A stretch of 64,000 nt of DNA, from the IMG/VR virus record IMGVR_UViG_3300042472_000628, positions 101,455-165,454 of that record. One strand, 5' to 3'. This document shows, one piece after another, positions 4,175-40,781 of the stretch. Every line of letters starts with the position of its first letter. Positions within the stretch are counted from its first letter, which is position 1. A model generated the notes under the pieces. The model searched no databases, was not told where the DNA came from, and was given only the letters and a program-made list of their open reading frames with translations. A program made the translations under genes and the position numbers. The DNA is from a virus (taxonomy: Duplodnaviria; Heunggongvirae; Uroviricota; Caudoviricetes).

Positions 4175-4789
4175 ATGTCAAAACAACCAAAACAACTTAG
4201 TTACAGAGAATTATCAGAAAACTTTATTCGTACTAAATCAGAAAAGGACTACAATGCTCTTTATGCACGAGTAAAACCAGGACTTAAAAACTATATTGCA
4301 AATGTAGTTAAGGATTCTGAAGCTACTGATGATATTCTTACTAATACTCTAACAAAAATGTGGACTAAGATTGATCAATATGATCCATCATACCAAATTA
4401 CAACTTGGTTATATCGCATCGCATTTAATGAGTGTCTTGGATGGATTCGTCAACGTAACTCTAAATATAGTATTGATACTATGAAAGAGTATGGTATTGA
4501 AATCTCTGAACAGTTTAGTCACACTTCTGCTAAAGACTTGTTGATCGAGTCAGAATTCAAGACTGAAGCAGATTGGTTATTAGAAGATCAAGATTTGACT
4601 AATCGTTATGAATTGGCTTTGAATAACATCAATGATTTGAAACCAATGTATAAAGAGATTATCGAAGATCGATTACTTAATGACATGAAATACGAAGATA
4701 TTGCTGAAAAGTACAATCTTCCATTGCAGACTATCAAGAACAGAATTCGTCGAGGTAAGTCTATCATTGCAGAAAATATGGGATATTAA
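4175..4789 (+). CDS. phage-encoded sigma-70 family (ECF-like) RNA polymerase sigma factor
   Basis: Region 2-like block DDILTNTLTKMWTKIDQYDPSYQITTWLYRIAFNECLGWIRQR; region 4 HTH-like C-terminus YEDIAEKYNLPLQTIKNRIRRGK. Confidence 0.65.
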   Translation: MSKQPKQLSYRELSENFIRTKSEKDYNALYARVKPGLKNYIANVVKDSEATDDILTNTLTKMWTKIDQYDPSYQITTWLYRIAFNECLGWIRQRNSKYSIDTMKEYGIEISEQFSHTSAKDLLIESEFKTEADWLLEDQDLTNRYELALNNINDLKPMYKEIIEDRLLNDMKYEDIAEKYNLPLQTIKNRIRRGKSIIAENMGY

Positions 4790-4975: not shown

Positions 4976-5052
4976 AAACAAACTCAACGCTATCGGTATA
5001 AAGATAGTAAATAACAAAATGAGTTCATTGACATATTGGTAAGAAAGAAAAT

Positions 5053-5137
5053 ACTCGGGTGGCGAAATCGGTAAACGCGCTGGACTTAAACTCCAGTGGA
5101 CATTGTGTCCTTGCGGGTTCAAGTCCCGCCCCGAGTA
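5053..5137 (+). tRNA. tRNA-Leu (anticodon TAA), class II with long variable arm
   Basis: Acceptor actcggg/cccgagt; Leu-type D arm; anticodon loop cTTAAAc; T loop GGGTTCAAGTCCC. Confidence 0.75.
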
Positions 5138-5149
5138 CAACAAAAAAAT

Positions 5150-5223
5150 GATTCGATAGCTCAACTGGATAGAGCAACGCCCTTCTAAGGCGTAGGTTGA
5201 AGGTTCGACTCCTTCTCGAATCA
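5150..5223 (+). tRNA. tRNA-Arg (TCT)
   Basis: Acceptor gattcga/tcgaatc; D arm tagctcaactggatagagca; anticodon stem acgcc/ggcgt with loop cttctaa. Confidence 0.75.
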
Positions 5224-5266
5224 CAATCTAAACATGGTGTTTAGAGGTTAAAACAAAAACAAAAAG

Positions 5267-5440
5267 ATGAAAAAAGTATTTTTCGCAGCAGTTTTCGCAG
5301 TATTGGCTTTGGCCTCATGCAAGAACACATCAACTTCAGGAGAAGCAACTTCAACTGATTCAACAACAGTTGTAGTAGATTCTACAACAGCAACAGTAGA
5401 CAGCGTAACAGTTGATACTACTGCAGCTCAAGTAAAGTAA
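5267..5440 (+). CDS. small lipoprotein (57 aa) embedded in the tRNA array
   Basis: Hand translation MKKVFFAAVFAVLALASCKNTSTSGEATSTDSTTVVVDSTTATVDSVTVDTTAAQVK; signal peptide with LASC lipobox; not in ORF track because under 60 aa. Confidence 0.5.
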   Translation: MKKVFFAAVFAVLALASCKNTSTSGEATSTDSTTVVVDSTTATVDSVTVDTTAAQVK

Positions 5441-5551
5441 GAAGCTTTAAAAAGCTGACTCAAATCCTATTGCATTATAGGTGAAATAGAGAGAACCAGT
5501 AATCTGCGGGTAAACCATAAGATTAGAATACGTCATACTCTATTTTAATTT

Positions 5552-5624
5552 GCCTCTTTAGCTCAGTTGGTAGAGCAGATCATTTGTAATGATCAGGTCG
5601 TTGGTTCGAGCCCGACAAGAGGCT
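5552..5624 (+). tRNA. tRNA-Thr (TGT)
   Basis: Acceptor gcctctt/aagaggc; D arm tagctcagttggtagagca; anticodon stem gatca/tgatc with loop tttgtaa. Confidence 0.75.
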
Positions 5625-5639
5625 CAAAATATAAAGGAT

Positions 5640-5712
5640 GGTTACAGCAAAAAATACTGAATAGACTGTTAATCTCGTGGTCGTCGGTTCGAATCCGGCT
5701 TTGTGTATCGTA
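5640..5712 (+). other. tRNA-like 3' half (T arm cgtcggttcgaatccggc) without a matching 5' acceptor strand
   Basis: Canonical T stem-loop present, but no complementary 5' acceptor within 90 nt. Confidence 0.3.
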
Positions 5713-5720
5713 AGAAAAGC

Positions 5721-5760
5721 AAATAGCTCAGTTGGTAGAGCACGTATCAAAAAGCTATCC
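5721..5760 (+). other. tRNA-like 5' half (acceptor + canonical D arm gcaaatagctcagttggtagagca) without a matching 3' half
   Basis: Perfect D-arm consensus but no downstream T arm/acceptor partner; lies inside a repeat element also seen at 10793-10860. Confidence 0.3.
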
Positions 5761-5961
5761 TGTTATTTTAATTTAAAAAGTGTAGCTCAGTGACATTAAT
5801 GAGAGCAATCTTCAGTACTTCGCAATTTGCAAGGAACATAGACGTGACGGTAGGTTGGATTCCTCCCACTCTTTTTTATTTAGATGGTGTCTCGGTACGC
5901 TCTGAAGAAATTCAACGACGAGGTCTCGGTAGGCAAAAGGCCTTTGATCCTACCCAACTTT

Positions 5962-6033
5962 GGTCCTGTAGTTAAACGGCTATAATGCAGCCCTGTCACG
6001 GCTGAGTTCGGGGTTCGATTCCCCGTGGGACCG
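5962..6033 (+). tRNA. tRNA-Asp (GTC)
   Basis: Acceptor ggtcctg/tgggacc (2 GU); anticodon stem cagcc/ggctg with loop ctgtcac; T loop GGGGTTCGATTCCCC. Confidence 0.65.
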
Positions 6034-6371
6034 CAAATTGATAATGAAAAAGTACTTTATGAGTATGTTAAATGGGACACTGCCAAAACCCAATAACCCA
6101 TAGTTTAACGAAAGTAGAAGAAAGACAATGGCGCATCAGGAACCTTAGAGGCCGCAATCTCAATGGGTATTTAGAAGACAATGTGATAGCTTCATTTATC
6201 CTGCTCTGGTAAGAAATTTGGTCAATTTATCAATGATTATGCTTAAAACCATTTCGCGTTAAGGTAACAAGTAGCGGCGTGCGGAGACTATGAAACAGTA
6301 GTTGAGTCTTTTTAGAACAAGACGTTAAAGAATTCAAAACCTTGGAATTGTCAAATATTCCTGAAGCTACC

Positions 6372-6399
6372 ATGGAAGGTGCTGGTGGTGACCTTCCAT
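6372..6399 (+). other. perfect 9-bp hairpin (atggaaggt ... accttccat) immediately 5' of tRNA-Glu
   Basis: Exact inverted repeat with 10-nt loop; no strong T-run, so more likely a processing or structural element than a terminator. Confidence 0.4.
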
Positions 6400-6403
6400 A
6401 TTT

Positions 6404-6475
6404 GCTGCCATCGTCTAACGGTTAGGACATTAGGTTTTCATCCTAAAAATCGGAGTTCGATTCTCCGTGGCAGTA
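6404..6475 (+). tRNA. tRNA-Glu (TTC)
   Basis: Acceptor gctgcca/tggcagt; anticodon stem ttagg/cctaa with loop ttttcat; T loop GGAGTTCGATTCTCC. Confidence 0.65.
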
Positions 6476-6588
6476 CGAATGCTAATGTATATGGTCAATA
6501 CATTAAATGTGATATAACAGACCCGTAAAAAAATGAAGCAATCACGGAAGGAAAGTTTTCGCAAACCTGCTTACACTTTGGATCGTAA

Positions 6589-6672
6589 AGTGATTTGGGA
6601 TTATAGTACAATAGGATAGTATAAAGCGACAGTAGTTGCGACAACATGGGTTCGAGTCCCATTATTTCCACA
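6589..6672 (+). other. tRNA-like element with canonical T arm (atgggttcgagtcccat), cloverleaf unresolved
   Basis: T loop and plausible acceptor (gggatta/tatttcc, 1 mismatch) but D and anticodon arms could not be folded by eye. Confidence 0.25.
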
Positions 6673-7083
6673 AACAATTATTTCTTACCAATATGTCAAA
6701 TTGACTTATTTTTAAAATAAATTAGAAAAAAACACATAAATTGTGAAACTTTTAAAAAGTTAATGATATATACTATAATAATACAAAAAACAACAACGAT
6801 GAAACGCAACAACTTACATATAAAATATTGTCTACAGATGATTAGCTGGATATTTAATCCGGGGGTTAATCATGGGCGTGTCTTATCTATAAGTTGATAG
6901 TATAATTATTTCAACATTTAGTTAAACCAAGCCCATCAAAAAGCTTGGTTTTTTTTTGTTTAAAATTTTAAAACGTTTGGTTGGCCGATCGGTTAGGCGC
7001 AGGATTGCAAACTCTGTAAGGTTGGTTCGATTCCAACACTAAACTCAGAACAAAGAGTTCTTTGACATCTTGGTGAAAACGAT

Positions 7084-7156
7084 GGAGCAGTGGCAGATGA
7101 GGTCATTGCGCTGGACTGAAAATCCAGAGGAGTTGGATCGATACCAACCTGCTCCA
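7084..7156 (+). tRNA. tRNA-Phe (GAA)
   Basis: Acceptor ggagcag/ctgctcc; anticodon stem ctgga/tccag with loop ctgaaaa; non-canonical T loop atcgata. Confidence 0.65.
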
Positions 7157-7162
7157 CAATAT

Positions 7163-7233
7163 TGTCCTTTGGTCTAATGGCAGGACACCTGGTTTTGATC
7201 CAGGCGGTCGAGGTTCGAATCCTCGAGGGACAA
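7163..7233 (+). tRNA. tRNA-Gln (TTG)
   Basis: Acceptor tgtcctt/agggaca; anticodon stem cctgg/ccagg with loop ttttgat; T loop GAGGTTCGAATCCTC. Confidence 0.65.
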
Positions 7234-7239
7234 CAACTA

Positions 7240-7315
7240 CGGAAGGTATAGGAGTCAGGTTTATCTAGCTCGCCTTGGACGCGAGATCACGTGGGTTCGA
7301 ATCCCACTCTTCCGA
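7240..7315 (+). tRNA. tRNA-Pro (TGG)
   Basis: Acceptor cggaagg/tcttccg; anticodon stem ctcgc/gcgag with loop cttggac; T loop GTGGGTTCGAATCCCAC. Confidence 0.65.
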
Positions 7316-7323
7316 CTTTTAAA

Positions 7324-7402
7324 TTGTTCGTAACTTTTGAAAAATAATTACGAAAACTGTTTCCAGATTAAAAAACTTTGTGTATATTTACATATAATTA
7401 AT
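7324..7402 (+). promoter_or_regulatory. conserved intergenic cassette 3, located inside the tRNA array (TTGTTCGTAACTTTTG ... TGTATATTTACATATAATTAATAA)
   Basis: Same motif as the protein-gene cassettes; followed by a TTGACAT-TTGG motif and tRNA-Gly. Confidence 0.55.
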
Positions 7403-7439
7403 AACAAAAGCTCTTTGACATGTTGGAAATAACAAATAA

Positions 7440-7511
7440 GCAGATGTCGTATAATGGTCATTACTCCAGACTTCCAATCTGGAGATGAGAGTTCGATTCT
7501 CTCCATCTGCT
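7440..7511 (+). tRNA. tRNA-Gly (TCC)
   Basis: Acceptor gcagatg/catctgc (perfect); anticodon stem ccaga/tctgg with loop cttccaa; T loop GAGAGTTCGATTCTCTC. Confidence 0.7.
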
Positions 7512-7519
7512 CACAGATA

Positions 7520-8110
7520 AGACTGTTATTAATTCATAGAGCTACATATTGCGATCATAGAATTAAAGGTGTTGGCTTCAAGGACGCTAGTAGGGAAGTA
7601 CACTTAAATAAAACGTGCAACGGGGAAAGTGTCGACTTAAGAAACGGCAAGTACCAACGAAGCGTGTGGTATCCATCAAACGCCTCCACGTGGCGATACT
7701 GGAAATTAGTTATGGAACTTGCGCAAGGAAAGCAACTAAAACCAAGTTTGAAAAAGCATAGGTAACTGAAAAATGTGGTTCGAGTCCACACCCGTAATAG
7801 CCAAAGGGTTGAAGCATTGAGGTTGATGCATAAGTTATAACAGAGCTGCAGCTCTAGGATAGGTCTGGTTAAAGTAGGCAGTGCCAATACAAAAGGTTCG
7901 AATCCTTTCTATCCACAAATACATGAGCTTTGAAGCACAAGTGGACGTGCAACCGGTAAAAGGCCGGATTAGGTTATAGGTTCGAATCCTATCTCTGCTC
8001 CAAATGATTATGAGGCCATTGGTTGGCGGCACCTCACAAAGGTTGAGTTGAAATATACTCTTTATTGTAAAGCTGGAATTGGTTCGAATCCAATCATAAT
8101 TACAAAGAAG
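7520..8110 (+). other. block of at least four tRNA-like elements with canonical GGTTCGA(A/G)TCC T loops (near 7777, 7897, 7978, 8071) whose 5' halves do not fold into standard cloverleaves
   Basis: T-loop consensus matches; acceptor partners found for some (e.g. gattatg/cataatt spanning 8006-8101, about 95 nt) but D/anticodon arms unresolved. Confidence 0.3.
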
Positions 8111-8200
8111 ATGCCTGATCAGCAATATCTTCCTAACGATTAAGATTACATATAGCTTAAAGAAATTTGTCGACACTAATTTCTGTAATTTTAATTGATT

Positions 8201-8276
8201 GCTTTACGTAGTTTAACTTGGTTTGGAACGCGGGCACTGAGCCCGAAGAGTATGGGTTCGAATCCCATGTAAAGAC
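8201..8276 (+). tRNA. tRNA, anticodon uncertain (possibly CTG, Gln)
   Basis: Acceptor gctttac/gtaaaga (1 mismatch); stem cggg/cccg with loop cactgag; T loop ATGGGTTCGAATCCCAT. Confidence 0.4.
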
Positions 8277-8283
8277 ACTATAT

Positions 8284-8355
8284 TGCGGGGTAGAGCAGAG
8301 GTAGCTCAGCGGGCTCATAACCCGAAGGTCGCAGGTTCGAATCCTGCCCCCGCTA
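8284..8355 (+). tRNA. initiator tRNA-fMet (CAT)
   Basis: Anticodon loop ctcataa flanked by GGG/CCC in the anticodon stem (initiator hallmark); unpaired 1-72 position; D arm gagc/gctc; T loop GCAGGTTCGAATCCTGC. Confidence 0.65.
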
Positions 8356-8408
8356 CAAATCTTAAGAAGTAATTAATCTTAAGACTGAATGGTTCGAAAC
8401 ATTCGGAA

Positions 8409-8499
8409 TGATTATGGTGTATGGTGCACAGTAGAAGTTAGTAAGCACATAGTGACTGAGGGCGGACACAGGATTAAGGTTCAAATCCTTATTAATCAG
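8409..8499 (+). tRNA. class II (long variable arm) tRNA-like, anticodon unresolved
   Basis: Acceptor tgattat/ttaatca (6 of 7 bp), T loop AAGGTTCAAATCCTT, length about 91 nt. Confidence 0.3.
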
Positions 8500-8505
8500 C
8501 AAAAT

Positions 8506-8579
8506 TCCTCAGTAGCTCAGTTGGTTAGAGCACCTGACTGTTAATCAGGGGGTCGTAAGTTCGAGTCTTACCTGGGGAG
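8506..8579 (+). tRNA. tRNA-Asn (GTT)
   Basis: Acceptor tcctcag/ctgggga; D arm tagctcagttggttagagca; anticodon stem cctga/tcagg with loop ctgttaa. Confidence 0.75.
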
Positions 8580-8645
8580 CTAACTACCAAAATTGAATGA
8601 TACGAGCCTCCAAAGTTCGAAAGGAGTCAGGTGGTAGTTAAATTT

Positions 8646-8726
8646 GGGAGTGTTGAGCAACGGTTGCTTAGCAGACTGTAAATCTGTGGCCTTACGGCAT
8701 TGGGGGTTCGAATCCCTCCACTCCCA
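8646..8726 (+). tRNA. tRNA-Tyr (GTA), class II
   Basis: Acceptor gggagtg/cactccc; anticodon loop ctgtaaa; long variable arm ggccttacggcat; T loop GGGGGTTCGAATCCCTC. Confidence 0.65.
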
Positions 8727-8735
8727 CTATAATAT

Positions 8736-8806
8736 ACATGTGTGGTGCAATGGTAGCATGACGGTCTCCAAAACCGTTGATGGGAGTTCGAATCTCTCCA
8801 CTTGTG
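8736..8806 (+). tRNA. tRNA-Trp (CCA)
   Basis: Anticodon stem acggt/accgt with loop ctccaaa; D stem gtgc/gcat; acceptor acatgtg/cacttgt has one internal mismatch. Confidence 0.55.
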
Positions 8807-9002
8807 CAAATAATAAGTTGATATGCTGTGAAAACCGAAATGAGCGCAAGTTGAGGTTAGGTGGGTTCGAATCCTGTTCAATAATTCCTATGTGGTGGAG
8901 CCAAGTAACAGATAACATATCATAGCCGATTTGGGTTGTGCACCTCGTCCGAGAAGCCCTAATAGTTCCTAATAGTTCGGTATGGAACAACTTATTATTA
9001 AT

Positions 9003-9076
9003 GGACTTGTAGCTCAGTTGGTTAGAGCACCGCACTCATAATGCGTAGGTCGTTGGTTCGAGTCCAGCCTGGTCCA
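9003..9076 (+). tRNA. tRNA with CAT anticodon (elongator Met or Ile2/lysidine type)
   Basis: D arm tagctcagttggttagagca; anticodon loop ctcataa without the GGG/CCC initiator signature. Confidence 0.6.
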
Positions 9077-9139
9077 CAGAATATGGAACAACATCGATCC
9101 CGTAATGCCATGGCTCGTGCACGAGTAACGGGATGCAAT

Positions 9140-9211
9140 AGTCGATTAGTTCAACGGATAGAACACTGAGCTACGGACTCAGGAATAAGGGTTCGAATCC
9201 TTTATTGACTA
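9140..9211 (+). tRNA. tRNA-Arg (ACG)
   Basis: Acceptor agtcgat/attgact; D stem gttc/gaac; anticodon stem ctgag/ctcag with loop ctacgga. Confidence 0.7.
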
Positions 9212-9220
9212 CAAATATAT

Positions 9221-9294
9221 TGCGGGTTAAAGTTCTGGTGAACTTATCGGTCTCATAAGCCGAATGAAGGGTAGTTCGATTCTGCCACCCGCTA
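9221..9294 (+). tRNA. tRNA with CAT anticodon (second non-initiator copy; Met or Ile2)
   Basis: Anticodon stem tcggt/gccga with loop ctcataa; T loop GGTAGTTCGATTCTGCC; acceptor gcgggt/acccgc. Confidence 0.5.
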
Positions 9295-9300
9295 CTAAAT

Positions 9301-9374
9301 TGCGATATGGTAGAGTTGGTTTCTTACGATGCTCTCATAAGGCATAGACTCTGGTTCGAGTCCAGATATCGCAA
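9301..9374 (+). tRNA. tRNA with CAT anticodon (third CAT species)
   Basis: Perfect acceptor tgcgata/tatcgca; anticodon stem atgct/ggcat with loop ctcataa; T loop TCTGGTTCGAGTCCAGA. Confidence 0.55.
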
Positions 9375-9379
9375 CACAT

Positions 9380-9507
9380 GATTGTACTTGTGCAGGGAAG
9401 CACAGCCCACCGGTAAATTGGGTGCCTTTTAGGCTAGGTTAATTTAAAGATGATGAAGTATCGATCAAGTAATCATCAGGGTTCGAGTCCTCTTACAATC
9501 ACGAAGA
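9380..9507 (+). ncRNA. about 128-nt tRNA-like RNA (perfect 7-bp acceptor gattgta/tacaatc + T-loop-like cagggttcgagtcct) with about 55 extra nt of internal hairpins
   Basis: Acceptor pairing and T loop seen directly; internal hairpins tgtgc-agggaa-gcaca and cacc-ggtaaattg-ggtg; may be an intron-containing tRNA or a stable small RNA. Confidence 0.35.
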
Positions 9508-9532
9508 GAAAAGCGAATAGTAATAATATTAG

Positions 9533-9604
9533 CGGCGATTAGTGGAGTGGTGACCACGCTGGCTATAGGGGCCGGAGAAGCAAGTTCGATTCTTGTATTG
9601 TCGT
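9533..9604 (+). tRNA. tRNA, anticodon uncertain (loop tataggg gives TAG, but no long variable arm and A33)
   Basis: Acceptor cggcgat/attgtcg (2 GU); D stem gtgg/ccac; T loop GCAAGTTCGATTCTTGT. Confidence 0.4.
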
Positions 9605-9795
9605 TATAAAATACTGGCCGCAATAAAATAAACCGGAAGTGTAGTAACGTGACAGATACTTAAGTTGCAAATAAAGTATTTGGTGTAGTTAAGTCTTACG
9701 TGGATTCGCGGTCTTAGGTAAGATGTTTATTTTATACTCTTTTTAAAAGTTTTTAGGGTGGTTCTGGTTCTTCAAAAACGCTATCACCTCCACCA

Positions 9796-9869
9796 GACTT
9801 CGTAGCTCAGTTGGTTAGAGCATCGCACTTTTAATGCGAGGGCCGATGGTTCGAGTCCATCCGGGGTCA
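9796..9869 (+). tRNA. tRNA-Lys (TTT)
   Basis: D arm tagctcagttggttagagca; anticodon stem tcgca/tgcga with loop cttttaa; T loop GATGGTTCGAGTCCATC. Confidence 0.75.
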
Positions 9870-10034
9870 CAATAAACTAAAAATTGTTACAATAAACTAA
9901 TAAGGTTTATTGATACAAAAAGAAGTTTACTGAATATGCTTCACTCATAATACTGCGATCTCTCAGTTAAAAGCTGTCGTAGAGTAAAGTTATAGTCCAA
10001 TATGGCTATAGGTTATGGTAAAGTGAAGCTCCAC

Positions 10035-10109
10035 GCTTTCTTAGCTCAGTTGGTTCAGAGCGCCTCGTTTACACCGAGGAGGTCACAGGTTCGAACCCTG
10101 TAGAAAGTA
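10035..10109 (+). tRNA. tRNA-Val (TAC)
   Basis: D arm tagctcagttggttcagagcg; anticodon stem cctcg/cgagg with loop tttacac; T loop ACAGGTTCGAACCCTGT. Confidence 0.75.
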
Positions 10110-10180
10110 CGACGGTGCACAAAGGGTACATGTCCTGGTCAGAGATTTATTCTCGCAAACTCGATACCTTAAGTTGAGCT

Positions 10181-10204
10181 GCCGATCTACGGGATCGGCT
10201 TTAT
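10181..10204 (+). terminator. hairpin gccgatc-tacgg-gatcggc followed by TTTAT (terminator or processing site inside the tRNA array)
   Basis: Perfect 7-bp inverted repeat directly 5' of tRNA-Leu(TAG). Confidence 0.4.
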
Positions 10205-10284
10205 GCCTGGGTGGTGGAATTGGTAGACACGGCGGTCTTAGAAACCGTGGCGAAAGCTTGAGAGTTCGAGTCTCTCCCTGGGTA
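10205..10284 (+). tRNA. tRNA-Leu (TAG), class II
   Basis: D region tg-gtg-gaattggtaga-cac matches the E. coli tRNA-Leu D loop; anticodon stem gcggt/accgt with loop cttagaa; variable arm ggcgaaagctt. Confidence 0.65.
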
Positions 10285-10287
10285 CTA

Positions 10288-10345
10288 GTGTTCATTATAA
10301 ATGAATGTTCATTGCCAATGAACACATGAAAATAATGAACATATA
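10288..10345 (+). promoter_or_regulatory. array of four 9-bp TGTTCATT/AATGAACA motifs in alternating orientation (two overlapping inverted-repeat pairs)
   Basis: gtgttcatt(10288) .. atgttcatt(10304) .. aatgaacac(10318) .. aatgaacat(10335); candidate operator or RNA structure between tRNA-Leu and tRNA-His. Confidence 0.4.
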
Positions 10346-10348
10346 CAT

Positions 10349-10422
10349 GGTGGTTATAGTGTTAGCGGTTAGCACGTCAGTTTGTGGTACTGATAGCATG
10401 GGTTCGAATCCCATTAATCACC
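10349..10422 (+). tRNA. tRNA-His (GTG) with encoded G-1
   Basis: Anticodon stem tcagt/actga (perfect) with loop ttgtggt; acceptor gtggtta/taatcac preceded by an extra G; T loop ATGGGTTCGAATCCCAT. Confidence 0.65.
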
Positions 10423-10429
10423 CAAAATT

Positions 10430-10514
10430 GGAAGATTGTCAGAGTGGTCTATTGTGCAACTTTGCTAAAGTTGTGGACTTCACGGTCCCGAAGGTTCGAA
10501 TCCTTCATCTTCCG
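10430..10514 (+). tRNA. tRNA-Ser (GCT), class II
   Basis: Perfect acceptor ggaagat/atcttcc; anticodon stem caact/agttg with loop ttgctaa; variable-arm hairpin tggacttcacggtccc; T loop GAAGGTTCGAATCCTTC. Confidence 0.75.
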
Positions 10515-10599
10515 CAAAAAATGAAACTTTTTTAATTGATCAAGTATAATTATCAAATAACAAAGTTCTTTAAAATATTAAAGGTTTCTTACAGCAATT

Positions 10600-10725
10600 A
10601 AAAAGCAATCAGAACCGGTACATTGTAGGTTCGAGTCCTACCTCCTCAACAAATTAACTATGAAAAATTGAGGAGTGGTGAAATTGGTAAACACACTGGT
10701 AAGCAAAAACAGAAACCTGACCATA
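10600..10725 (+). other. apparently permuted tRNA: T arm + 3' acceptor strand (gtaggttcgagtcctac-ctcctca, ending about 10648) lies UPSTREAM of its complementary 5' acceptor + D arm (tgaggag-tg-gtg-aaattggtaaa-cac, from about 10669)
   Basis: Exact complementarity ctcctca/tgaggag seen in sequence; halves are in reversed order on the same strand. Confidence 0.3.
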
Positions 10726-10914
10726 TTGGAATACATACAGCAAATTTACAAACTTTGACTTTTACTCAAACAAACTGTATTCCGTATTTTTAAAATATAA
10801 AGGATGCTTCCAGCAAATTTAAAAACTTTTATTGGAAAAAGCAAATCAGCATCCTGTTATTTTATTCATTTAACTAGCCAGCTTTATTAGATACATATAT
10901 AAATATTACAACAA

Positions 10915-11607
10915 ATGAAAACACATATAATTTATCTAAAGGGCAATGAATTCTCAGAGACCATGGTAAAAGATACCATAAAGTCTTTGAACAAATTCGA
11001 TATCGACTATGAATTATTTGATGGAGTTGTAGGCAGAAAAGGCATTGAAGTTTTAAAATCTTATAATGCAAAACCCTCAGCATATGTTAATATGGAAGAT
11101 TGGACCGATGGTACTATCGGTTGTTTAGCAAGTCATTATTTATTATGGGACGAGTGCTCTAAACAAGATCAACCTTTTTTAATTCTTGAACAAGATGCTG
11201 TTTTAGTTAGAGATCCTAGAGAAATACTACACTTAATAGAAAATGCATGTCATTTAGATGCATATTTACCCTTTAATAATTCAGGTGCTGTTACAGAACA
11301 TGAACACTTTAAAGCTTATAATGATGCTATCAAACTTTATACTAGTGGAGTTAAAAAACACCCTATTAGTAAATTTTATGGAGATAAGTCTGTAACTGGA
11401 AGCACTTTTAGAGGCGCATATGGATATATAATAACACCCAAAGGTGCCCAAGAAATCTTAAATTTTATAAATAAAAAAGGTATATTTCCAGCAGATGCAT
11501 GTTTATGTGAAAATGCTACAGATATTCAAAGATCAAATAGTACATACGTTAGATTAAATCCATTTTTCGAAACATTGGACTTACAAAGAAAATTTTCATC
11601 AAGATAA
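10915..11607 (+). CDS. glycosyltransferase family 25 (LOS/LPS beta-glycosyltransferase-like)
   Basis: GTIGCLASHYLLWDE motif and overall layout typical of GT25 (Lic2B/LgtB-like). Confidence 0.55.
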   Translation: MKTHIIYLKGNEFSETMVKDTIKSLNKFDIDYELFDGVVGRKGIEVLKSYNAKPSAYVNMEDWTDGTIGCLASHYLLWDECSKQDQPFLILEQDAVLVRDPREILHLIENACHLDAYLPFNNSGAVTEHEHFKAYNDAIKLYTSGVKKHPISKFYGDKSVTGSTFRGAYGYIITPKGAQEILNFINKKGIFPADACLCENATDIQRSNSTYVRLNPFFETLDLQRKFSSR

Positions 11608-11611: not shown

Positions 11612-11685
11612 AGTCATTTAGCTCAGTTGGTTAGAGCGCCTCGCTGATACCGAGGAGGTCGTAAGTTCGAGTCTTACATTGACTA
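11612..11685 (+). tRNA. tRNA-Ile (GAT)
   Basis: D arm tagctcagttggttagagcg; anticodon stem cctcg/cgagg with loop ctgatac; T loop GTAAGTTCGAGTCTTAC. Confidence 0.7.
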
Positions 11686-11689
11686 CATA

Positions 11690-11717
11690 AAAAAAGCCGC
11701 AATTTGCGGCTTTTTTC
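11690..11717. terminator. bidirectional rho-independent terminator (A6-gccgcaa-at-ttgcggc-T6) between convergent + and - strand genes
   Basis: Perfect 7-bp hairpin flanked by an A-run and a T-run. Confidence 0.7.
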
Positions 11718-16961: not shown

Positions 16962-17438
16962 ATGACAGAACAAGATATAGCATTTAAACCCATTGTTTGG
17001 CTTTTTATTCAACAATATAATTCAACAAATGATCTTTATATAAAGAAGAAATTAAAAGAAGCTTTAAAAGATACTCTTAAAAAAATGACAGATCAAAAAG
17101 TAACTATGGTTTCTGAAGCTGTTTTCTTAGCATGTCAAAAAATTAATCAAGATCCATTTGAATTGTTATGGACAAAGAGAAATATTTTAGGTAAAGATGA
17201 AAATGGTAAATCACTTCTTTTATGGGAACATTCAACACCACTAGCAGAATATTTTGAATCATTGATTAAATGTACATCTGAAACGGAAGTAGAAAAAACT
17301 ATTGAAAATTATAGCGGTGTGTGTTGGTTAATGCGATATGAAGATAATTTATTAAATAAATCAGGATTTAGAGCTAAGAGACCTGGAGGTTGGGAAGAAA
17401 CATATACTAAATGCGATATTAAAATCATTAGAAAATAA
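16962..17438 (+). CDS. hypothetical protein (start placed at ATG 12 nt after the cassette rather than the track's 16869, which lies inside the cassette)
   Basis: ORF track frame; promoter-to-ATG spacing consistent with other cassettes. Confidence 0.45.
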   Translation: MTEQDIAFKPIVWLFIQQYNSTNDLYIKKKLKEALKDTLKKMTDQKVTMVSEAVFLACQKINQDPFELLWTKRNILGKDENGKSLLLWEHSTPLAEYFESLIKCTSETEVEKTIENYSGVCWLMRYEDNLLNKSGFRAKRPGGWEETYTKCDIKIIRK

Positions 17439-26180: not shown

Positions 26181-26226
26181 TTTTTTTATGTCAAAACTTT
26201 TTGGTATATTTACATATAATTAAAAA
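26181..26226 (+). promoter_or_regulatory. conserved promoter cassette 7 (T7-ATGTCAAAAC ... GGTATATTTACATATAATTAAAAA)
   Basis: Motif instance. Confidence 0.55.
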
Positions 26227-26236
26227 CAACTTAAAG

Positions 26237-28544: not shown

Positions 28545-28547
28545 GAA

Positions 28548-28757
28548 ATGAAAGATTTAATAGAAGCGCTAATCATATTAGCTAAATACATGGATCCTGA
28601 ACAAAAATGGCCTACTCATTGCGAACATGATGTTCTTTATGTTTGTCACATTGACGAAGAAGATGTATCCGAAGAGGACACGAAAAGATTAGATGAATTA
28701 GGATTTCATCCAAGCGAAGAAGGCGGATTTCAATCTTATAGATTCGGTAGTTGTTAA
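28548..28757 (+). CDS. hypothetical protein
   Basis: ORF track. Confidence 0.4.
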   Translation: MKDLIEALIILAKYMDPEQKWPTHCEHDVLYVCHIDEEDVSEEDTKRLDELGFHPSEEGGFQSYRFGSC

Positions 28758-29245: not shown

Positions 29246-29248
29246 AAT

Positions 29249-29461
29249 ATGTCACAATCTTCACCAGAAGGAATAATTTTAGGAAAAGGTTCTAAATTAG
29301 TTTCATTTAAAGCTTCAATTGATAATGAAGTAGTTGTTAATATAGAAAAGGACAATGCTTTAGAAAAAGCCATTTCATTATTAAAACAAACAACCGAATA
29401 TGAAGTTTTAGAAAGTTTCAGAGAAAAGGTAAAAAATCTTGAACAATTTAAAAACAAATAA
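29249..29461 (+). CDS. hypothetical protein
   Basis: ORF track. Confidence 0.4.
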   Translation: MSQSSPEGIILGKGSKLVSFKASIDNEVVVNIEKDNALEKAISLLKQTTEYEVLESFREKVKNLEQFKNK

Positions 29462-40703: not shown

Positions 40704-40777
40704 GGGGGTGTAGCTCAGTTGGCTAGAGCATCTGCCTTGCACGCAGAGGGTCGCAGGTTCGATTCCTGTCACCTCCA
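40704..40777 (+). tRNA. tRNA-Ala (TGC)
   Basis: Acceptor gggggtg/cacctcc with G3-U70; D arm tagctcagttggctagagca; anticodon stem tctgc/gcaga with loop cttgcac. Confidence 0.7.
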
Positions 40778-40781
40778 CTAA

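What the first reader, a model, noticed from the sequence alone, without database searches (positions are those of the whole stretch)
5053..10514. Very large phage tRNA island with initiator, three CAT-anticodon species and many aberrant members
I could fold 25 tRNAs by eye (including tRNA-Ile at 11.6 kb and tRNA-Ala at 40.7 kb outside the island). They cover at least 19 amino acids: Leu x2, Arg x2, Thr, Asp, Glu, Phe, Gln, Pro, Gly, Asn, Tyr, Trp, Lys, Val, His, Ser, Ile and Ala. The CAT-anticodon genes are an initiator with the GGG/CCC stem signature plus three further species at 9003, 9221 and 9301. Many additional elements carry a perfect GGTTCGAATCC T loop but do not fold canonically. A set this size makes the phage largely independent of host tRNA pools and is typical of phages facing tRNA-depleting defences or codon-usage mismatch. 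The initiator plus three further CAT species are compatible with a full fMet / elongator Met / Ile2 (lysidine-type) set, but Met versus Ile2 identity could not be assigned by eye. The phage encodes no obvious TilS.
Basis: seen in the sequence. Interest (0 to 1): 0.6.

Follow-up and report, generated by a model that had tools for sequence, protein, structure and literature searches.

The report
Phage tRNA array with tRNA-like RNAs
This is a real, near-complete set of transfer RNA genes in an uncultured phage, and the "broken" tRNA look-alikes scattered between them are conserved, structured small-RNA families rather than decaying gene copies.

Summary
ARAGORN finds 26 tRNAs, all on the + strand: 24 in 5053-10515, plus Ile-GAT at 11612 and Ala-TGC at 40704. 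Twenty-four are canonical. "Gln-CTG" at 8201 and "Leu-TAG" at 9532 lack U33 and are tRNA-like only.

There are four CAT genes. 8284 is a textbook initiator and 9221 is a diverged paralogue of it. 9003 and 9301 are the elongator Met / Ile2 pair, with 9003 the better Ile2 candidate, but this is unresolved. No TilS lies in the window.

The orphan "GGTTCGAATCC" elements are not pseudogenes. They are 80-99% conserved in phages whose flanking sigma factor is only about 60% identical, and their stems covary. One family (8006-8102) has 57 distinct variants in viral and metagenomic contigs, 99.3% pairing with 17 of 25 pairs compensatory. It is absent from 185,579 species' genomes, GenBank phages and Rfam.

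Two modules (5636-5760, 10582-10718) are circularly permuted tRNA-like domains, with YrlA-like topology, inside a terminal stem that carries UUACAGCAA.

The closest precedent is T4 species 1 RNA. The function of these RNAs is unknown. I infer that a tRNA chassis lets RNase P and RNase Z excise them from the array transcripts.

The parts
5024..5039 (+). Conserved motif TTCATTGACATATTGG, 14 nt upstream of tRNA-Leu. Candidate promoter or leader element. Copies also at 7058 and 7411.
   Evidence: 8 matches against 2.07 expected. The three + strand copies inside the island each sit 11-15 nt upstream of a tRNA.
5053..5138 (+). tRNA-Leu (UAA), class II
   Evidence: ARAGORN; Rfam 63.5 bits; U33/R37
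5150..5224 (+). tRNA-Arg (UCU)
   Evidence: (71.7 bits)
5267..5440 (+). Small ORF (57 aa) with a lipoprotein-type signal (…LALASC…), embedded in the island
   Evidence: DNA conserved in about 3 lineages. Not analysed further.
5552..5625 (+). tRNA-Thr (UGU)
   Evidence: (67.3 bits)
5636..5760 (+). Terminal-stem ncRNA with a circularly permuted tRNA-like insert. Terminal stem GGATGG 5636-5641 / CTATCC 5755-5760, followed on the 5' side by UUACAGCAAA. T arm 5683-5699. Acceptor closed as a hairpin, TTTGTGT 5700-5706 / AAGCAAA 5717-5723. D arm 5726-5741.
   Evidence: Rfam YrlA 33.5 bits, E 6e-6, below GA 69. MFE fold pairs the two ends. 4 lineages, 95.2% paired, 4 compensatory pairs.
5780..5871 (+). 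tRNA-like element with an expanded D loop, an enlarged anticodon-region hairpin and a degenerate T loop (TTGGATT)
   Evidence: 98-99% identical in L001 and L084. The L064 homologue keeps an intact D arm, T arm and a 7-bp acceptor.
5887..5957 (+). Conserved structured RNA without a T loop, directly upstream of tRNA-Asp. Hairpin GGTAGG…CCTACC covaries.
   Evidence: 8 distinct lineages; GGTAGG/CCTACC, GGTTGG/CCAACC, GGCAGG/CCTGCC, GGTAGA/TCTACC
5962..6034 (+). tRNA-Asp (GUC)
   Evidence: (58.6 bits)
6404..6476 (+). tRNA-Glu (UUC)
   Evidence: (63.9 bits)
6597..6671 (+). Aberrant tRNA-like element with a short anticodon loop (ARAGORN models 6 nt; the MFE fold gives 4 nt). It lies in a ~200-bp insertion (about 6480-6680) unique to this phage.
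   Evidence: Rfam tRNA 36.5 bits. ARAGORN -ps calls 'tRNA-?? (gt)'. No homologue in any locus.
6927..6957 (+). Hairpin plus T-run, an intrinsic-terminator-like site splitting the island into transcription units
   Evidence: read directly from the sequence. Not listed by the simple scan.
   Evidence: (47.6 bits)
7084..7157 (+). tRNA-Phe (GAA)
   Evidence: (59.8 bits)
7163..7234 (+). tRNA-Gln (UUG)
   Evidence: (63.9 bits)
7240..7316 (+). tRNA-Pro (UGG)
   Evidence: (51 bits)
7320..7426 (+). Intergenic element matched in about 30 related loci, ending in the TTTGACATGTTGG motif
   Evidence: coverage profile
7440..7512 (+). tRNA-Gly (UCC)
   Evidence: (68.2 bits)
7658..7856 (+). Conserved ~200-nt multi-hairpin RNA domain. 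It includes a T-arm-like hairpin at 7774-7790 and the hairpin AGAGC-UGCA-GCUCU at 7842-7855. It lies immediately 5' of the mini tRNA-like element at 7857.
   Evidence: block 7656-7924 present in about 8 lineages. RNAalifold gives 41 pairs, 11 with compensatory changes.
7857..7915 (+). 59-nt tRNA-like element without an anticodon arm: acceptor GGATAG/CTATCC, D-loop-like GGUUAAAG, a mini hairpin, T arm 7892-7908
   Evidence: 14 distinct sequences. 5 of 6 acceptor pairs and 4 of 5 T-stem pairs show compensatory changes.
7925..8002 (+). tRNA-like element with T arm 7976-7992 and a poor acceptor stem
   Evidence: 96% identical in the L065/L070 lineages; only 3 distinct sequences
8006..8102 (+). Member of a phage-restricted tRNA-like RNA family. 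7-bp acceptor; 3-bp D stem with loop AUUGGUU; 3-4-bp 'anticodon' stem with a 5-7-nt C-rich loop; variable hairpin; conserved CUCUUUAUGGCAAAGCUG; T arm.
   Evidence: see report
8201..8276 (+). tRNA-like element called 'Gln-CTG'. It has A33 instead of U33. The anticodon loop is hypervariable in sequence and length among homologues.
   Evidence: (30.8 bits). CAG is only 8% of Gln codons.
8284..8356 (+). Initiator tRNA (CAU): G29-31:C39-41, U1.U72 mismatch, A11:U24
   Evidence: 64.3 bits; 84% identical to the E. coli tRNA-fMet sequence as I recalled it
8409..8500 (+). 92-nt tRNA-like element with T arm 8475-8491 (TTCAAAT loop), a covarying acceptor and a long variable hairpin
   Evidence: 7 lineages; GATTA/TAATC versus GACTA/TAGTC
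8506..8580 (+). tRNA-Asn (GUU)
   Evidence: (71 bits)
8646..8727 (+). tRNA-Tyr (GUA), class II
   Evidence: (52.9 bits)
8736..8807 (+). tRNA-Trp (CCA)
   Evidence: (62.4 bits)
8820..8999 (+). Two conserved structured segments: one with a T-arm-like hairpin at 8861, and a 93-98% conserved 3' segment at 8894-8999
   Evidence: 10 distinct lineages
9003..9077 (+). Elongator-type tRNA (CAU). The better tRNA-Ile2 (lysidine) candidate, but Met is not excluded.
   Evidence: (65.7 bits), 41: C4:G69; 72-80% identical to the phage Ile-GAT tRNAs; 81% versus 78% identical to the recalled E. coli Ile2 and Met sequences
9140..9212 (+). tRNA-Arg (ACG)
   Evidence: (59.6 bits)
9221..9294 (+). Initiator-like CAU tRNA paralogue: U1.U72 mismatch, A11:U24, 2 of 3 G:C pairs in the anticodon stem, 6-bp D stem with a 4-nt loop, 6-nt variable loop
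   Evidence: tRNA-Sec model 36 bits; 97-100% conserved in 5 loci
9301..9375 (+). Elongator-type tRNA (CAU) with an unusual D loop (AGUUGGUUUC), G2:C71 and C3:G70. The likelier elongator Met.
   Evidence: 57.4 bits; 95% identical in L043/L044. No match in GenBank phages.
9379..9501 (+). 123-nt structured RNA closed by an 8-bp acceptor-like stem (UGAUUGUA/UACAAUCA), with a T-loop-like hairpin and four internal covarying hairpins
   Evidence: 5 lineages
9532..9605 (+). tRNA-like element called 'Leu-TAG': no long variable arm, A33, and an 8-bp acceptor in the MFE fold
   Evidence: (44 bits). Conserved only in L001.
9796..9870 (+). tRNA-Lys (UUU)
   Evidence: (71.7 bits)
10035..10110 (+). tRNA-Val (UAC)
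   Evidence: (68.9 bits)
10205..10285 (+). tRNA-Leu (UAG), class II
   Evidence: (49.9 bits)
10350..10423 (+). tRNA-His (GUG), with G-1 encoded at 10349 opposite C73
   Evidence: (57.6 bits)
10430..10515 (+). tRNA-Ser (GCU), class II
   Evidence: (48 bits)
10582..10718 (+). Second terminal-stem ncRNA with a permuted tRNA-like insert. Stem AGGTTTCT 10582-10589 / AGAAACCT 10711-10718, then UACAGCAA. Anticodon-stem equivalent 10614-10618 / 10696-10700. T arm 10625-10641. Closed acceptor CTCCTCAA 10642-10649 / TTGAGGAG 10668-10675. Leu-like D arm.
   Evidence: 5 sequences, 97.9% paired, 5 compensatory pairs. Rfam Dicty_Class_I_RNA 24.7 bits. tmRNA models 9.6-13.2 bits.
10728..10783 (+). Insert-less copy of the same terminal-stem RNA (GGAATACA…TGTATTCC, motif UACAGCAAA)
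   Evidence: (RF01414 21.9 bits)
10802..10854 (+). Insert-less copy of the same terminal-stem RNA (GGATGCT…AGCATCC, motif UCCAGCAAA), followed by CUGUUAUUUUA
   Evidence: RF01414 29.6 bits, GA 41.5; 7 lineages
11612..11686 (+). tRNA-Ile (GAU), followed by a terminator-like hairpin at 11693-11716
   Evidence: (69.9 bits)
40704..40778 (+). tRNA-Ala (UGC), an isolated gene outside the island
   Evidence: (71.5 bits)

Best explanation
The region is the tRNA array of a large, AT-rich, uncultured phage, probably of a Bacteroidota host. It holds two kinds of genes on one strand.

(1) A near-complete minimal decoding set of 24 canonical tRNAs, mostly with U34 anticodons that match the phage's own A/U-ending codons. 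It includes a true initiator, a second initiator-like paralogue, and two elongator-type CAU tRNAs that most likely split into Met and lysidine-dependent Ile2. Only Ser-UGA is missing from the window.

(2) At least a dozen conserved non-coding RNAs built on a tRNA chassis. They keep an acceptor stem, a T arm and usually a D arm. The anticodon arm is truncated, hypervariable, replaced by other hairpins, or opened so that the tRNA-like domain is circularly permuted inside a longer stem.

Shown: these elements are under purifying selection with compensatory base-pair changes, and one family has invariant non-tRNA sequence blocks across dozens of phages.

Inferred: they are co-transcribed with the tRNAs, and the acceptor/T-arm minihelix and elbow recruit host RNase P, RNase Z and perhaps the CCA-adding enzyme to excise and stabilise them. 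The variable or invariant inserts would carry the actual, still unknown, function, such as tRNA mimicry or binding of a protein.
For: tRNA set:
- ARAGORN 26 and Rfam 25; 24 have U33 and R37.
- Codon usage has 81% A/T at third positions; AUA accounts for 282 codons.
- 8284 has the initiator features; 9221 is its paralogue.

Not pseudogenes:
- Inter-tRNA units are 80-99% identical in loci whose sigma factor is only 55-62% identical at the protein level.
- Units are shuffled as modules between loci.

Family at 8006-8102:
- 29-sequence alignment: 99.3% of cells paired, 17 of 25 pairs with changes on both sides, 106 such cells, 0 of 500 shuffles as high, slid controls at most 5 pairs.
- With the metagenome scan: 142 instances, 57 distinct sequences, 18 acceptor-stem versions. 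The D-stem closing pair uses all four Watson-Crick combinations, 57 of 57 paired.
- G.U pairs occur only in the + strand sense.
- The elements lie inside tRNA arrays on the same strand and are never called tRNA.
- 36 of 57 variants carry the same A-CAA 3' trailer as the neighbouring tRNAs.

Other elements:
- Mini tRNA-like 7857-7915: 9 of 11 acceptor and T-stem pairs are compensatory.
- Permuted modules: 95-98% paired, with compensatory changes in the terminal stem, anticodon-stem equivalent and closed acceptor.

Precedent: T4 rnaC (species 1 RNA) sits in the T4 tRNA cluster and ends in a CCGGG-UUCGAAU-CCCGG T arm closed by its 5' and 3' ends.
Against: - There are no expression data. Transcription, processing by RNase P or Z, CCA addition and stability are all inferred.
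- Simple promoter and terminator scans are no better than shuffles.
- Several units rest on only 3-5 lineages (7925-8002, 9532, 5636-5760, 10582-10718), so their covariation counts are small.
- The unit at 6597 has no homologue and could be a degenerate copy.
- L064 carries a deletion of the T arm in its copy of the 7857 element, so not every copy is maintained.
- No conserved protein neighbour was found that would point to a partner.
- The Met versus Ile2 assignment rests on E. coli identity rules and tRNA sequences recalled from memory, not on an isotype-specific classifier.
Confidence: 0.66

Rival explanations
1. The aberrant elements are decaying tRNA pseudogenes and fragments left by duplication and recombination in a fast-evolving array, with no function of their own.
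For: - 6597 lies in an insertion with no homologue.
- 9532 is found in only one other locus.
- L064 has lost the T arm of its 7857-type copy.
- Arrays are visibly rearranged between relatives.
Against: - Most units are more conserved than the flanking proteins.
- Stems change by compensatory substitutions.
- The 8006-type family keeps invariant non-tRNA blocks while every acceptor pair varies, across 57 distinct sequences.
Confidence: 0.08
2. They are functional but non-canonical tRNAs that are aminoacylated and decode on the ribosome, for example for recoding, frameshifting or suppression.
For: - They keep the acceptor stem, the T arm and the D-loop GG that form the tRNA elbow.
- 9221 has a proper 7-nt CUCAUAA loop.
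- Non-canonical cloverleaf tRNAs are known from bacteria and their phages (PMC5389517, listed).
Against: - The 8006 family has a 3-4-bp 'anticodon' stem and a loop of 5-7 nt whose length varies.
- The 8201 family's loop varies in both length and sequence, with A33.
- 7857 has no anticodon arm at all.
- None has a conserved anticodon triplet.
Confidence: 0.07
3. The two permuted modules and their insert-less siblings are phage Y-RNA-like scaffolds. A conserved terminal stem would bind a Ro/Rsr-type or other RNA-binding protein, and the tRNA-like domain would tether an effector, as part of an RNA-repair or RNA-quality-control system.
For: - The topology is the same as YrlA: T arm, then closed acceptor, then D arm, all inside a long stem. 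The best Rfam hit for 5655-5767 is YrlA at E 6e-6, and 37.4 bits in L001.
- The window encodes RNA-repair-type proteins: Thg1-like (102.6 bits), HAD_SAK_2, NADAR and an RNase T-like exonuclease.
- Four copies share a stem plus the UUACAGCAA motif.
Against: - The YrlA score is half the gathering threshold, and the model also weakly hits ordinary tRNA-tRNA junctions.
- No TROVE/Rsr or RtcB was found among the 30 ORFs scanned. The only unscanned-size candidate of 400 aa or more has no Pfam hit.
- The stem sequence does not resemble the YrlA consensus.
Confidence: 0.2
4. The tRNA-like RNAs are decoys or sponges for host tRNA-targeting defence enzymes or toxins that recognise the tRNA body. The canonical tRNAs would replace cleaved host tRNAs.
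For: - The body is conserved while the anticodon loop is hypervariable or deleted.
- The phage co-encodes a full replacement tRNA set and tRNA-repair-type enzymes.
- From general knowledge, phage tRNAs are reported to counter anticodon nucleases and the PARIS defence system.
Against: - Known anticodon nucleases recognise the anticodon loop, which these RNAs lack.
- The invariant non-tRNA blocks in the 8006 family suggest a specific ligand rather than generic mimicry.
- No defence or anti-defence gene linkage was found.
Confidence: 0.15
5. The orphan T-arm and acceptor pieces are DNA-level features, such as attP-like tRNA fragments for integration or homing-endonuclease targets, rather than RNAs.
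For: Phage attachment sites often contain tRNA 3' halves (general knowledge). T4 has the homing endonuclease segB inside its tRNA cluster.
Against: - No integrase or homing endonuclease ORF lies in or beside the island.
- The partner strands covary, and G.U pairs are tolerated on one strand only.
Confidence: 0.02

Closest known systems
Large tRNA arrays of big phages (T4-like phages, mycobacteriophage cluster C, huge phages and Lak phages)
   Same: Tens of tRNAs on one strand, covering nearly all amino acids and matching the phage's own codon bias. The sigma factor next to the island is 28-34% identical to proteins of huge phages and Prevotella Lak phages.
   Different: No close relative among 50,697 GenBank phage records at the DNA level. 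About two thirds of the island is not tRNA but conserved structured RNA.
Phage T4 species 1 and species 2 RNAs (rnaC, rnaD)
   Same: Small stable RNAs of unknown function encoded inside a phage tRNA cluster. rnaC ends in a canonical T arm (CCGGG-UUCGAAU-CCCGG), and its 5' and 3' ends pair like an acceptor stem around inserted hairpins. This is the same design as 8006-8102 and 9379-9501.
   Different: No detectable sequence similarity. The families here are restricted to uncultured phage contigs. There are many per array rather than two.
Bacterial Y RNA YrlA (Rfam RF02553)
   Same: A tRNA-like domain whose acceptor is closed by a loop and whose 'anticodon stem' continues into a long terminal helix. 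It is the best Rfam match for 5655-5767.
   Different: Scores 33.5 bits against a gathering score of 69. The terminal helix sequence is unrelated. No Rsr/Ro gene was seen in the window.
Two-piece (permuted) tmRNA (Rfam RF04321)
   Same: The same permuted gene order (T arm, acceptor 3' strand, spacer, acceptor 5' strand). A true example sits in the tRNA island of relative L040 (56.8 bits, G3:U70, tag …ADGEFALAA*).
   Different: The window's modules score 9.6-17.5 bits, have A3:U70 rather than G3:U70, have a full D stem, and have no tag reading frame.
Dictyostelium Class I RNAs (Rfam RF01414; PMC7919456)
   Same: A short stem joining the 5' and 3' ends, a conserved motif (CC)UUACAGCAA immediately after the 5' strand, a variable interior and a similar length of about 55 nt. 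Rfam hits of 21.9-29.6 bits in the window and 28.1-29.6 bits in four relatives.
   Different: Below the gathering score of 41.5. Class I RNAs are reported as unique to dictyostelids with a DUSE promoter. Here they are phage-encoded, and two copies carry a tRNA-like insert. The resemblance may be convergent or chance.
tRNA-scaffolded viral or cellular ncRNAs (MHV68 tRNA-miRNA TMERs; MALAT1 mascRNA) — from general knowledge
   Same: A tRNA-like module is used so that RNase P and RNase Z define the ends of an adjoining non-coding RNA. The structured 7658-7856 domain followed by the 7857-7915 mini tRNA-like element has this layout.
   Different: Those systems are eukaryotic. Processing here has not been tested.

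Membership tests
Canonical tRNA | Cloverleaf scoring above the Rfam RF00005 gathering score and called by ARAGORN | tested here: met
   26 ARAGORN calls. 25 Rfam hits at or above 29 bits, plus 9533 at 44 bits and 8202 at 30.8 bits with looser filters.
Canonical tRNA | 7-nt anticodon loop with U33 and purine 37, and an anticodon conserved among homologues | tested here: met
   Met for 24 genes. Not met for 8201 (A33; loop varies in length and sequence among homologues), for 9532 (A33) or for 6597 (short loop: 6 nt in ARAGORN's model, 4 nt in the MFE fold). These three are filed as tRNA-like.
Bacterial initiator tRNA | CAU anticodon with three consecutive G:C pairs (29-31:39-41) in the anticodon stem | tested here: met
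   8284: CGGGCUCAUAACCCG. 9221 keeps only G29:C41 and G30:C40, with U31.G39.
Bacterial initiator tRNA | Unpaired 1:72 position and A11:U24 | tested here: met
   Both 8284 and 9221 have U1 opposite U72 (E. coli has C1.A72) and A11:U24. Read from the sequence.
tRNA-Ile2 (lysidine-modified CAU) | CAU anticodon with Ile-type body determinants (E. coli rule from general knowledge: C4:G69 and C5:G68; resemblance to tRNA-Ile1) | tested here: inconclusive
   9003 has C4:G69 and U5.G68, and is the CAT tRNA closest to the phage Ile-GAT tRNAs (72-80%). But it is 81% versus 78% identical to the recalled E. coli Ile2 and Met sequences. 9301 has G4:C69 and A5:U68. Depositor annotations were uninformative.
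tRNA-Ile2 (lysidine-modified CAU) | A TilS enzyme available and lysidine present at position 34 | not testable with these tools
   No SGGxDS PP-loop ORF in the window. The rest of the phage genome and the host are unknown. The modification needs mass spectrometry.
YrlA / bacterial Y RNA (RF02553) | Score at or above the Rfam gathering score (69 bits) | tested here: not met
   33.5 bits for 5655-5767. No hit for 10582-10718.
YrlA / bacterial Y RNA (RF02553) | tRNA-like domain (T arm, closed acceptor, D arm) mounted on a terminal helix formed by the 5' and 3' ends | tested here: met
   Both modules: 95.2% and 97.9% of cells paired, with compensatory changes in all helices.
YrlA / bacterial Y RNA (RF02553) | Associated Ro/Rsr (TROVE) protein gene | tested here: not met
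   None among the 30 ORFs scanned with Pfam. The window covers only part of the genome.
Two-piece tmRNA (RF04321) | Gathering score of 47 bits, G3:U70 in the acceptor, and a tag reading frame ending in …LAA* | tested here: not met
   Window hits score 9.6-17.5 bits. ARAGORN -m finds none. The acceptor is UGAGGAG/CUCCUCA, so position 3:70 is A:U. Positive control: L040 scores 56.8 bits with tag ADGEFALAA*.
Dictyostelium Class I RNA (RF01414) | Gathering score of 41.5 bits | tested here: not met
   29.6, 24.7 and 21.9 bits in the window; 28.1-29.6 bits in relatives.
Dictyostelium Class I RNA (RF01414) | 6-bp stem joining the ends, plus an 11-nt motif adjacent to the 5' strand (PMC7919456) | tested here: met
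   Four copies have a 6-8-bp covarying stem followed by UUACAGCAA, UACAGCAA or UCCAGCAA, and by CUG after the 3' strand. The model consensus is printed.
Dictyostelium Class I RNA (RF01414) | Dictyostelid origin with the DUSE promoter about 60 nt upstream | tested here: not met
   The sequence is from a phage (IMG/VR relatives). DUSE itself was not searched for.
T4 species 1 RNA-type stable RNA of phage tRNA clusters | Non-tRNA small RNA gene inside a phage tRNA cluster, on the same strand, with a terminal T arm and end-to-end pairing | tested here: met
   T4 annotation and fold, compared with 8006-8102, 8409-8500 and 9379-9501. Stability and expression are untested here.

The most novel reading that the evidence does not exclude
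Phage tRNA arrays of this uncultured lineage double as operons for a whole repertoire of tRNA-chassis non-coding RNAs. These include a widespread phage-only family (8006-type) with an invariant ligand-binding core. They also include Y-RNA-like, permuted tRNA-like modules mounted on a stem-plus-UUACAGCAA scaffold that is otherwise known only from Dictyostelium Class I RNAs. On this reading the RNAs act as tRNA mimics that engage host tRNA-binding proteins (defence nucleases, Ro-type RNPs or translation factors) during infection.
Probability: 0.2. Interest if true: 0.85.

Novelty: new variant of a known kind. Interest (0 to 1): 0.66.

Why it matters
Large phage tRNA sets are well known, so the island as such is ordinary. 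What is not ordinary is that roughly two thirds of it consists of conserved, covarying RNAs that automated tRNA finders either skip or mislabel.

- At least one family is abundant in viral metagenomes and is missing from Rfam, GenBank phages and cellular genomes.
- T4's species 1 and 2 RNAs have had no assigned function since they were described decades ago (from general knowledge). This lineage offers many more such RNAs, with rich comparative data, which makes the question of what phages do with tRNA-shaped non-tRNAs testable.
- There is a practical consequence. Phage tRNA counts and 'pseudo-tRNA' calls in metagenomes, such as Gln-CTG and Leu-TAG here, can be misassigned structured ncRNAs.

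Tried and rejected
- Intron-aware ARAGORN (-i) added nothing, so these are not intron-containing tRNAs.
- ARAGORN -m found no tmRNA in the window.
- Simple promoter and terminator scans were no better than shuffles.
- The pattern AAAGGNNNNNTTACAGCAA in viral contigs was too unspecific.
- The genome-contig scan for the 8006-type D-loop motif gave 40 hits, all chance matches in coding DNA. This is useful as a negative result.
- A search for a conserved protein neighbour of the 8006-type RNA found only the sigma-factor neighbourhood shared by near-duplicate contigs.
- Depositor annotations of similar CAT tRNAs all say 'tRNA-Met' and do not help with Ile2. 9301 and the 8006-type consensus have no match in GenBank phages.
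- I considered an anti-Shine-Dalgarno mimic (CACCUCC in the 8006-type core). I dropped it because ACC is paired and the window's own copy reads CACCUCA.
- ARAGORN's relaxed call at 7710-7798 ('Trp') is wrong. Comparative folding shows that T-arm-like hairpin belongs to a larger multi-hairpin domain.
- Three literature searches found no description of these elements.

Full report
**Observation.** ARAGORN finds 26 tRNA genes in the window, all on the + strand. Twenty-four lie in 5053-10515; the others are Ile-GAT at 11612 and Ala-TGC at 40704. Rfam's tRNA model independently reaches its gathering score for 25 loci. With looser filters it also scores 9533 at 44 bits and 8202 at 30.8 bits. It overlooked tRNA-Cys (GCA) at 6975, so all 20 amino acids are represented.

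A scan for perfect T arms finds 10 'orphans' outside called tRNAs, at 5683, 6646, 7774, 7892, 7976, 8078, 8475, 8861, 9270 and 10625. All are on the + strand and confined to the island. Acceptor-plus-T-arm minihelices appear 0.15 times per shuffled island, against 34 observed in the window, 32 of them in the island.

**Which tRNAs are canonical.** Twenty-four of the 26 calls have U33 and a purine at position 37. The exceptions are 'Gln-CTG' at 8201 (loop CACUGAG) and 'Leu-TAG' at 9532 (loop UAUAGGG, no long variable arm). In homologues of 8201 the acceptor, D and T regions are nearly invariant and the anticodon stem covaries. The loop, however, differs in both sequence and length: CACTGAG, CATATAAGT, TTTTCT, CGACCAG. 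CAG is only 8% of the phage's Gln codons. These two are tRNA-like RNAs, not decoders.

No tRNA encodes CCA. Most are followed by N73-CAA(A). The anticodon set is mostly U34 and fits the phage's own usage, with 81% A/T at third positions. It would read every sense codon except Ser UCN. tRNA-Ser (UGA) lies about 6.6 kb upstream of the sigma gene in relatives, which would place it outside this window.

**CAT species.** 8284 is a textbook initiator. It has GGG/CCC in the anticodon stem, an unpaired 1:72 (U.U) and A11:U24. It is 84% identical to the E. coli tRNA-fMet sequence as I recalled it from memory.

It still folds as a clean cloverleaf with a CUCAUAA loop (-26.7 kcal/mol, z = -3.5). It shares the UGCGGG acceptor, the U1.U72 mismatch and A11:U24 with 8284, at 72% identity. 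It is 97-100% conserved in five loci. It is a second, diverged initiator-like gene.

9003 and 9301 are elongator-type. 9003 carries C4:G69 and is the CAT tRNA closest to the phages' Ile-GAT tRNAs (72-80%). Its identity to the recalled E. coli Ile2 sequence is 81%, against 78% for E. coli Met. 9301 has G2:C71 and C3:G70 and an odd D loop. It is 95% conserved in a distant lineage and has no match in GenBank phages.

AUA accounts for 282 codons, 24% of Ile. Several relatives carry tRNA-Ile (UAU) instead. An AUA decoder is therefore clearly under selection. 9003 as Ile2 and 9301 as Met is the better guess, but it is not settled. No PP-loop (TilS-like) ORF lies in the window.

**Relatives.** The ECF-type sigma factor at 4175-4789 retrieves more than 80 IMG/VR loci, many with tRNA arrays downstream. 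The GT25 gene at 10915-11607 retrieves four more. No GenBank phage is close at the DNA level. The nearest named relatives of the sigma factor are huge phages and Prevotella Lak phages, at 28-34%.

**The aberrant elements are conserved RNAs.** BLAST of the island against these loci shows that inter-tRNA segments are 80-99% identical in phages whose sigma factor is only 55-62% identical at the protein level. Units are reshuffled as cassettes. In L001, for example, the 8006-type unit precedes the 7514-7919 block and the 7925 unit is absent.

**The 8006-8102 family.**
- Searching viral contigs for its D-loop motif found 78 stretches, about 35 of which are distinct tRNA-like variants. They lie inside arrays of 12-26 tRNAs on the same strand and are never called tRNA.
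- A 29-sequence alignment gives 99.3% paired cells and 17 of 25 pairs with changes on both sides (106 cells). No shuffle out of 500 reached this, and slid controls gave at most 5 such pairs.
- Every acceptor pair varies, yet ACC-UCCCCAA-GGU and CUCUUUAUGGCAAAGCUG are nearly invariant.
- A metagenome scan raises the count to 142 instances, 57 distinct sequences and 18 acceptor versions. The D-stem closing pair is Watson-Crick in 57 of 57 using all four combinations, and 36 of 57 end in A-CAA like the tRNAs.
- The 'anticodon' stem is only 3-4 bp and its loop is 5-7 nt, so the RNA cannot decode.
- The same motif in one genome for each of 185,579 bacterial and archaeal species gave 40 hits, none of them tRNA-like.
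- The family consensus has no match in 50,697 GenBank phages and no Rfam family (best hit: tRNA at 15.3 bits).

**Other units.**
- 7857-7915 is a 59-nt tRNA-like RNA with no anticodon arm. In 14 distinct sequences, 5 of 6 acceptor pairs and 4 of 5 T-stem pairs show compensatory changes.
- It follows a conserved ~200-nt multi-hairpin domain at 7658-7856. RNAalifold predicts 41 pairs there, 11 of them compensatory, across 8 lineages.
- 8409-8500, 9379-9501, 5887-5957 and 8820-8999 are likewise conserved, with covarying hairpins.
- 6597-6671 is different. It lies in a ~200-bp insertion unique to this phage and has a short anticodon loop, 6 nt in ARAGORN's model and 4 nt in the MFE fold. It may be a degenerate copy.

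**Permuted modules.** At 5683-5741 and 10625-10694 the order is T arm, acceptor 3' strand, short loop, acceptor 5' strand, D arm. Both are enclosed by an anticodon-stem equivalent and a terminal helix formed by the 5' and 3' ends.
- Across 5 and 4 lineages, 97.9% and 95.2% of cells pair, with compensatory changes in every helix. Examples are CTCCTCAA/TTGAGGAG, CTCTCCAA/TTGGAGAG and CTCCCTAA/TTAGGGAG.
- This is the topology of the bacterial Y RNA YrlA, which is the best Rfam hit for 5655-5767. But the score is 33.5 bits against a gathering score of 69, and that model also weakly hits ordinary tRNA junctions.
- It is also the gene order of two-piece tmRNA. A genuine one sits in relative L040: 56.8 bits against a gathering score of 47, G3:U70, tag ADGEFALAA*. 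The window's modules score 9.6-17.5 bits, have A3:U70 and have no tag.

**A shared terminal stem.** The terminal stem of both modules is followed by (U)UACAGCAA on the 5' side and CUG on the 3' side. Two insert-less copies lie at 10728-10783 and 10802-10854.

Rfam's Dictyostelium Class I RNA model matches these at 21.9-29.6 bits in the window and 28.1-29.6 bits in relatives, against a gathering score of 41.5. Its consensus reads GaUcuCCUUACAGCAA…GagAuCUG. Class I RNAs are described as 42-65 nt, with a 6-bp terminal stem and an 11-nt motif next to its 5' strand, and as unique to dictyostelids (PMC7919456). I record this as an unexplained resemblance, not as membership.

**Context.** The window encodes the following:
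- a Thg1-like tRNA-His guanylyltransferase family protein (31025-31870, 102.6 bits);
- YqeY and an 'RNA-repair' HAD domain (28751-29245);
- NADAR, and a below-threshold macro-domain match (17.1 bits against a cut-off of 22);
- an RNase T-like exonuclease and an ATP-dependent ligase;
- NAD-salvage enzymes.

No Rsr/TROVE, RtcB or CCA-adding enzyme was seen among the 30 ORFs scanned.

**Known precedent.** In T4, rnaC and rnaD (species 1 and 2 RNAs) are annotated as small stable RNAs directly after tRNA-Arg in the tRNA cluster. rnaC ends in a canonical T arm, and its two ends pair around inserted hairpins. This is the same chassis design.

**Interpretation.**
- Shown: a real, near-complete tRNA set, plus several conserved, covarying tRNA-chassis RNA families on the same strand.
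- Inferred: they are co-transcribed, and the acceptor/T-arm minihelix and elbow make them substrates for RNase P, RNase Z and possibly the CCA-adding enzyme. That would excise and stabilise them.
- Unknown: what the inserts do. Candidate functions are Y-RNA-like scaffolding linked to RNA repair, decoys for tRNA-binding host factors, or binding of a specific ligand by the invariant core of the 8006 family.
- Largely excluded: pseudogene decay, unconventional decoding and DNA-level roles, at least for the conserved families.

**Verdict.** The tRNA island is an already-known kind of feature. The interleaved RNA families are new members or variants of the poorly understood class exemplified by T4 species 1 RNA, and one of them is a well-supported, phage-restricted family that has not been catalogued.

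Noticed in passing
window 27981-34000: A cluster of RNA-repair and NAD-related genes. It holds a below-threshold macro-domain match (27981-28544; 17.1 bits against a cut-off of 22), HAD_SAK_2 'Swiss Army Knife RNA repair' HAD (28751-29245), NADAR (29439-29951), a Thg1-like tRNA-His guanylyltransferase (31025-31870, 102.6 bits; 48% identical to Bacillus phage homologues), YqeY (31860-32318) and NAMPT (32404-33984). A PRPP-synthetase-like gene lies at 26201-27133.
   Followed up: partly
window 5024-5039, 7058-7073, 7411-7426: The motif TTC(T/A)TTGACATNTTGG sits 11-15 nt upstream of tRNA-Leu, tRNA-Phe and tRNA-Gly. There are 8 matches in the window against 2.07 expected. It could be a promoter for the adjacent phage ECF sigma factor (4175-4789) or a leader or processing signal.
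   Followed up: partly
window 7320-7410: A ~90-nt intergenic element (…TTTACATATAATTAATAACAAAAG…) is matched in about 30 distinct related loci, far more than its neighbours. A similar TTTACATATAATT occurs at 4859 and 26209.
   Followed up: no
window 5267-5440: A 57-aa ORF with a lipoprotein signal and lipobox (MKKVFFAAVFAVLALASC…) followed by a Thr/Ser/Val-rich repeat lies inside the tRNA island. Its DNA is conserved in about 3 lineages.
   Followed up: no
L040 11054-11215 (also the L033/L035 lineage): A relative carries a genuine permuted (two-piece) tmRNA inside its tRNA island: RF04321 at 56.8 bits, G3:U70 acceptor, tag …ADGEFALAA*. ARAGORN misses it. ARAGORN does call permuted or standard tmRNAs in L105, L106, L109, L114 and L145.
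   Followed up: partly
window 10728-10783, 10802-10854 (and the outer stems of 5636-5760 and 10582-10718): Four copies of a stem-plus-UUACAGCAA RNA resemble Dictyostelium Class I RNAs in architecture and motif (Rfam RF01414, 21.9-29.6 bits, below the gathering score of 41.5). That family is reported as unique to dictyostelids.
   Followed up: partly
L013-L016, L027, L032, L038-L042: Several relatives carry tRNA-Ile with a UAU anticodon, which reads AUA directly, where this phage has only CAU-type candidates. This suggests alternative solutions to AUA decoding within one phage group.
   Followed up: partly
window tRNA 3' ends (e.g. 5137-5142, 8355-8360, 9211-9216): No tRNA encodes CCA. Most tRNAs, and 36 of 57 variants of the 8006-type RNA, are followed by N73-CAA(A), one base away from CCA. 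In relatives L001, L083 and L084 the 9003-type tRNA does encode CCA.
   Followed up: partly
window 6480-6680: A ~200-bp insertion relative to L001 and L084 carries the aberrant tRNA-like element at 6597-6671. It has no homologue in any fetched locus.
   Followed up: partly
L064 ~17040-17075: In L064 the 7857-type mini tRNA-like element has lost its T arm and hairpin, leaving GGATAGGTCTGGTTTCTATCC (acceptor stem around a small loop), while the upstream domain is 96% identical to the window.
   Followed up: no
window 51089-54292 and 54285-55867, 60291-61043: A 1067-aa multi-glycosyltransferase fusion (GT9 + GT1, plus a C-terminal region similar to a gene annotated 'methyltransferase FkbM' in Microcystis phage Mel-JY01), an NAD-dependent epimerase-like ORF and a KDO-8-P-synthase-like ORF. 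This suggests the phage remodels host surface sugars. The epimerase-like and KDO-8-P-synthase-like labels come from reading the translations, not from a Pfam scan.
   Followed up: no
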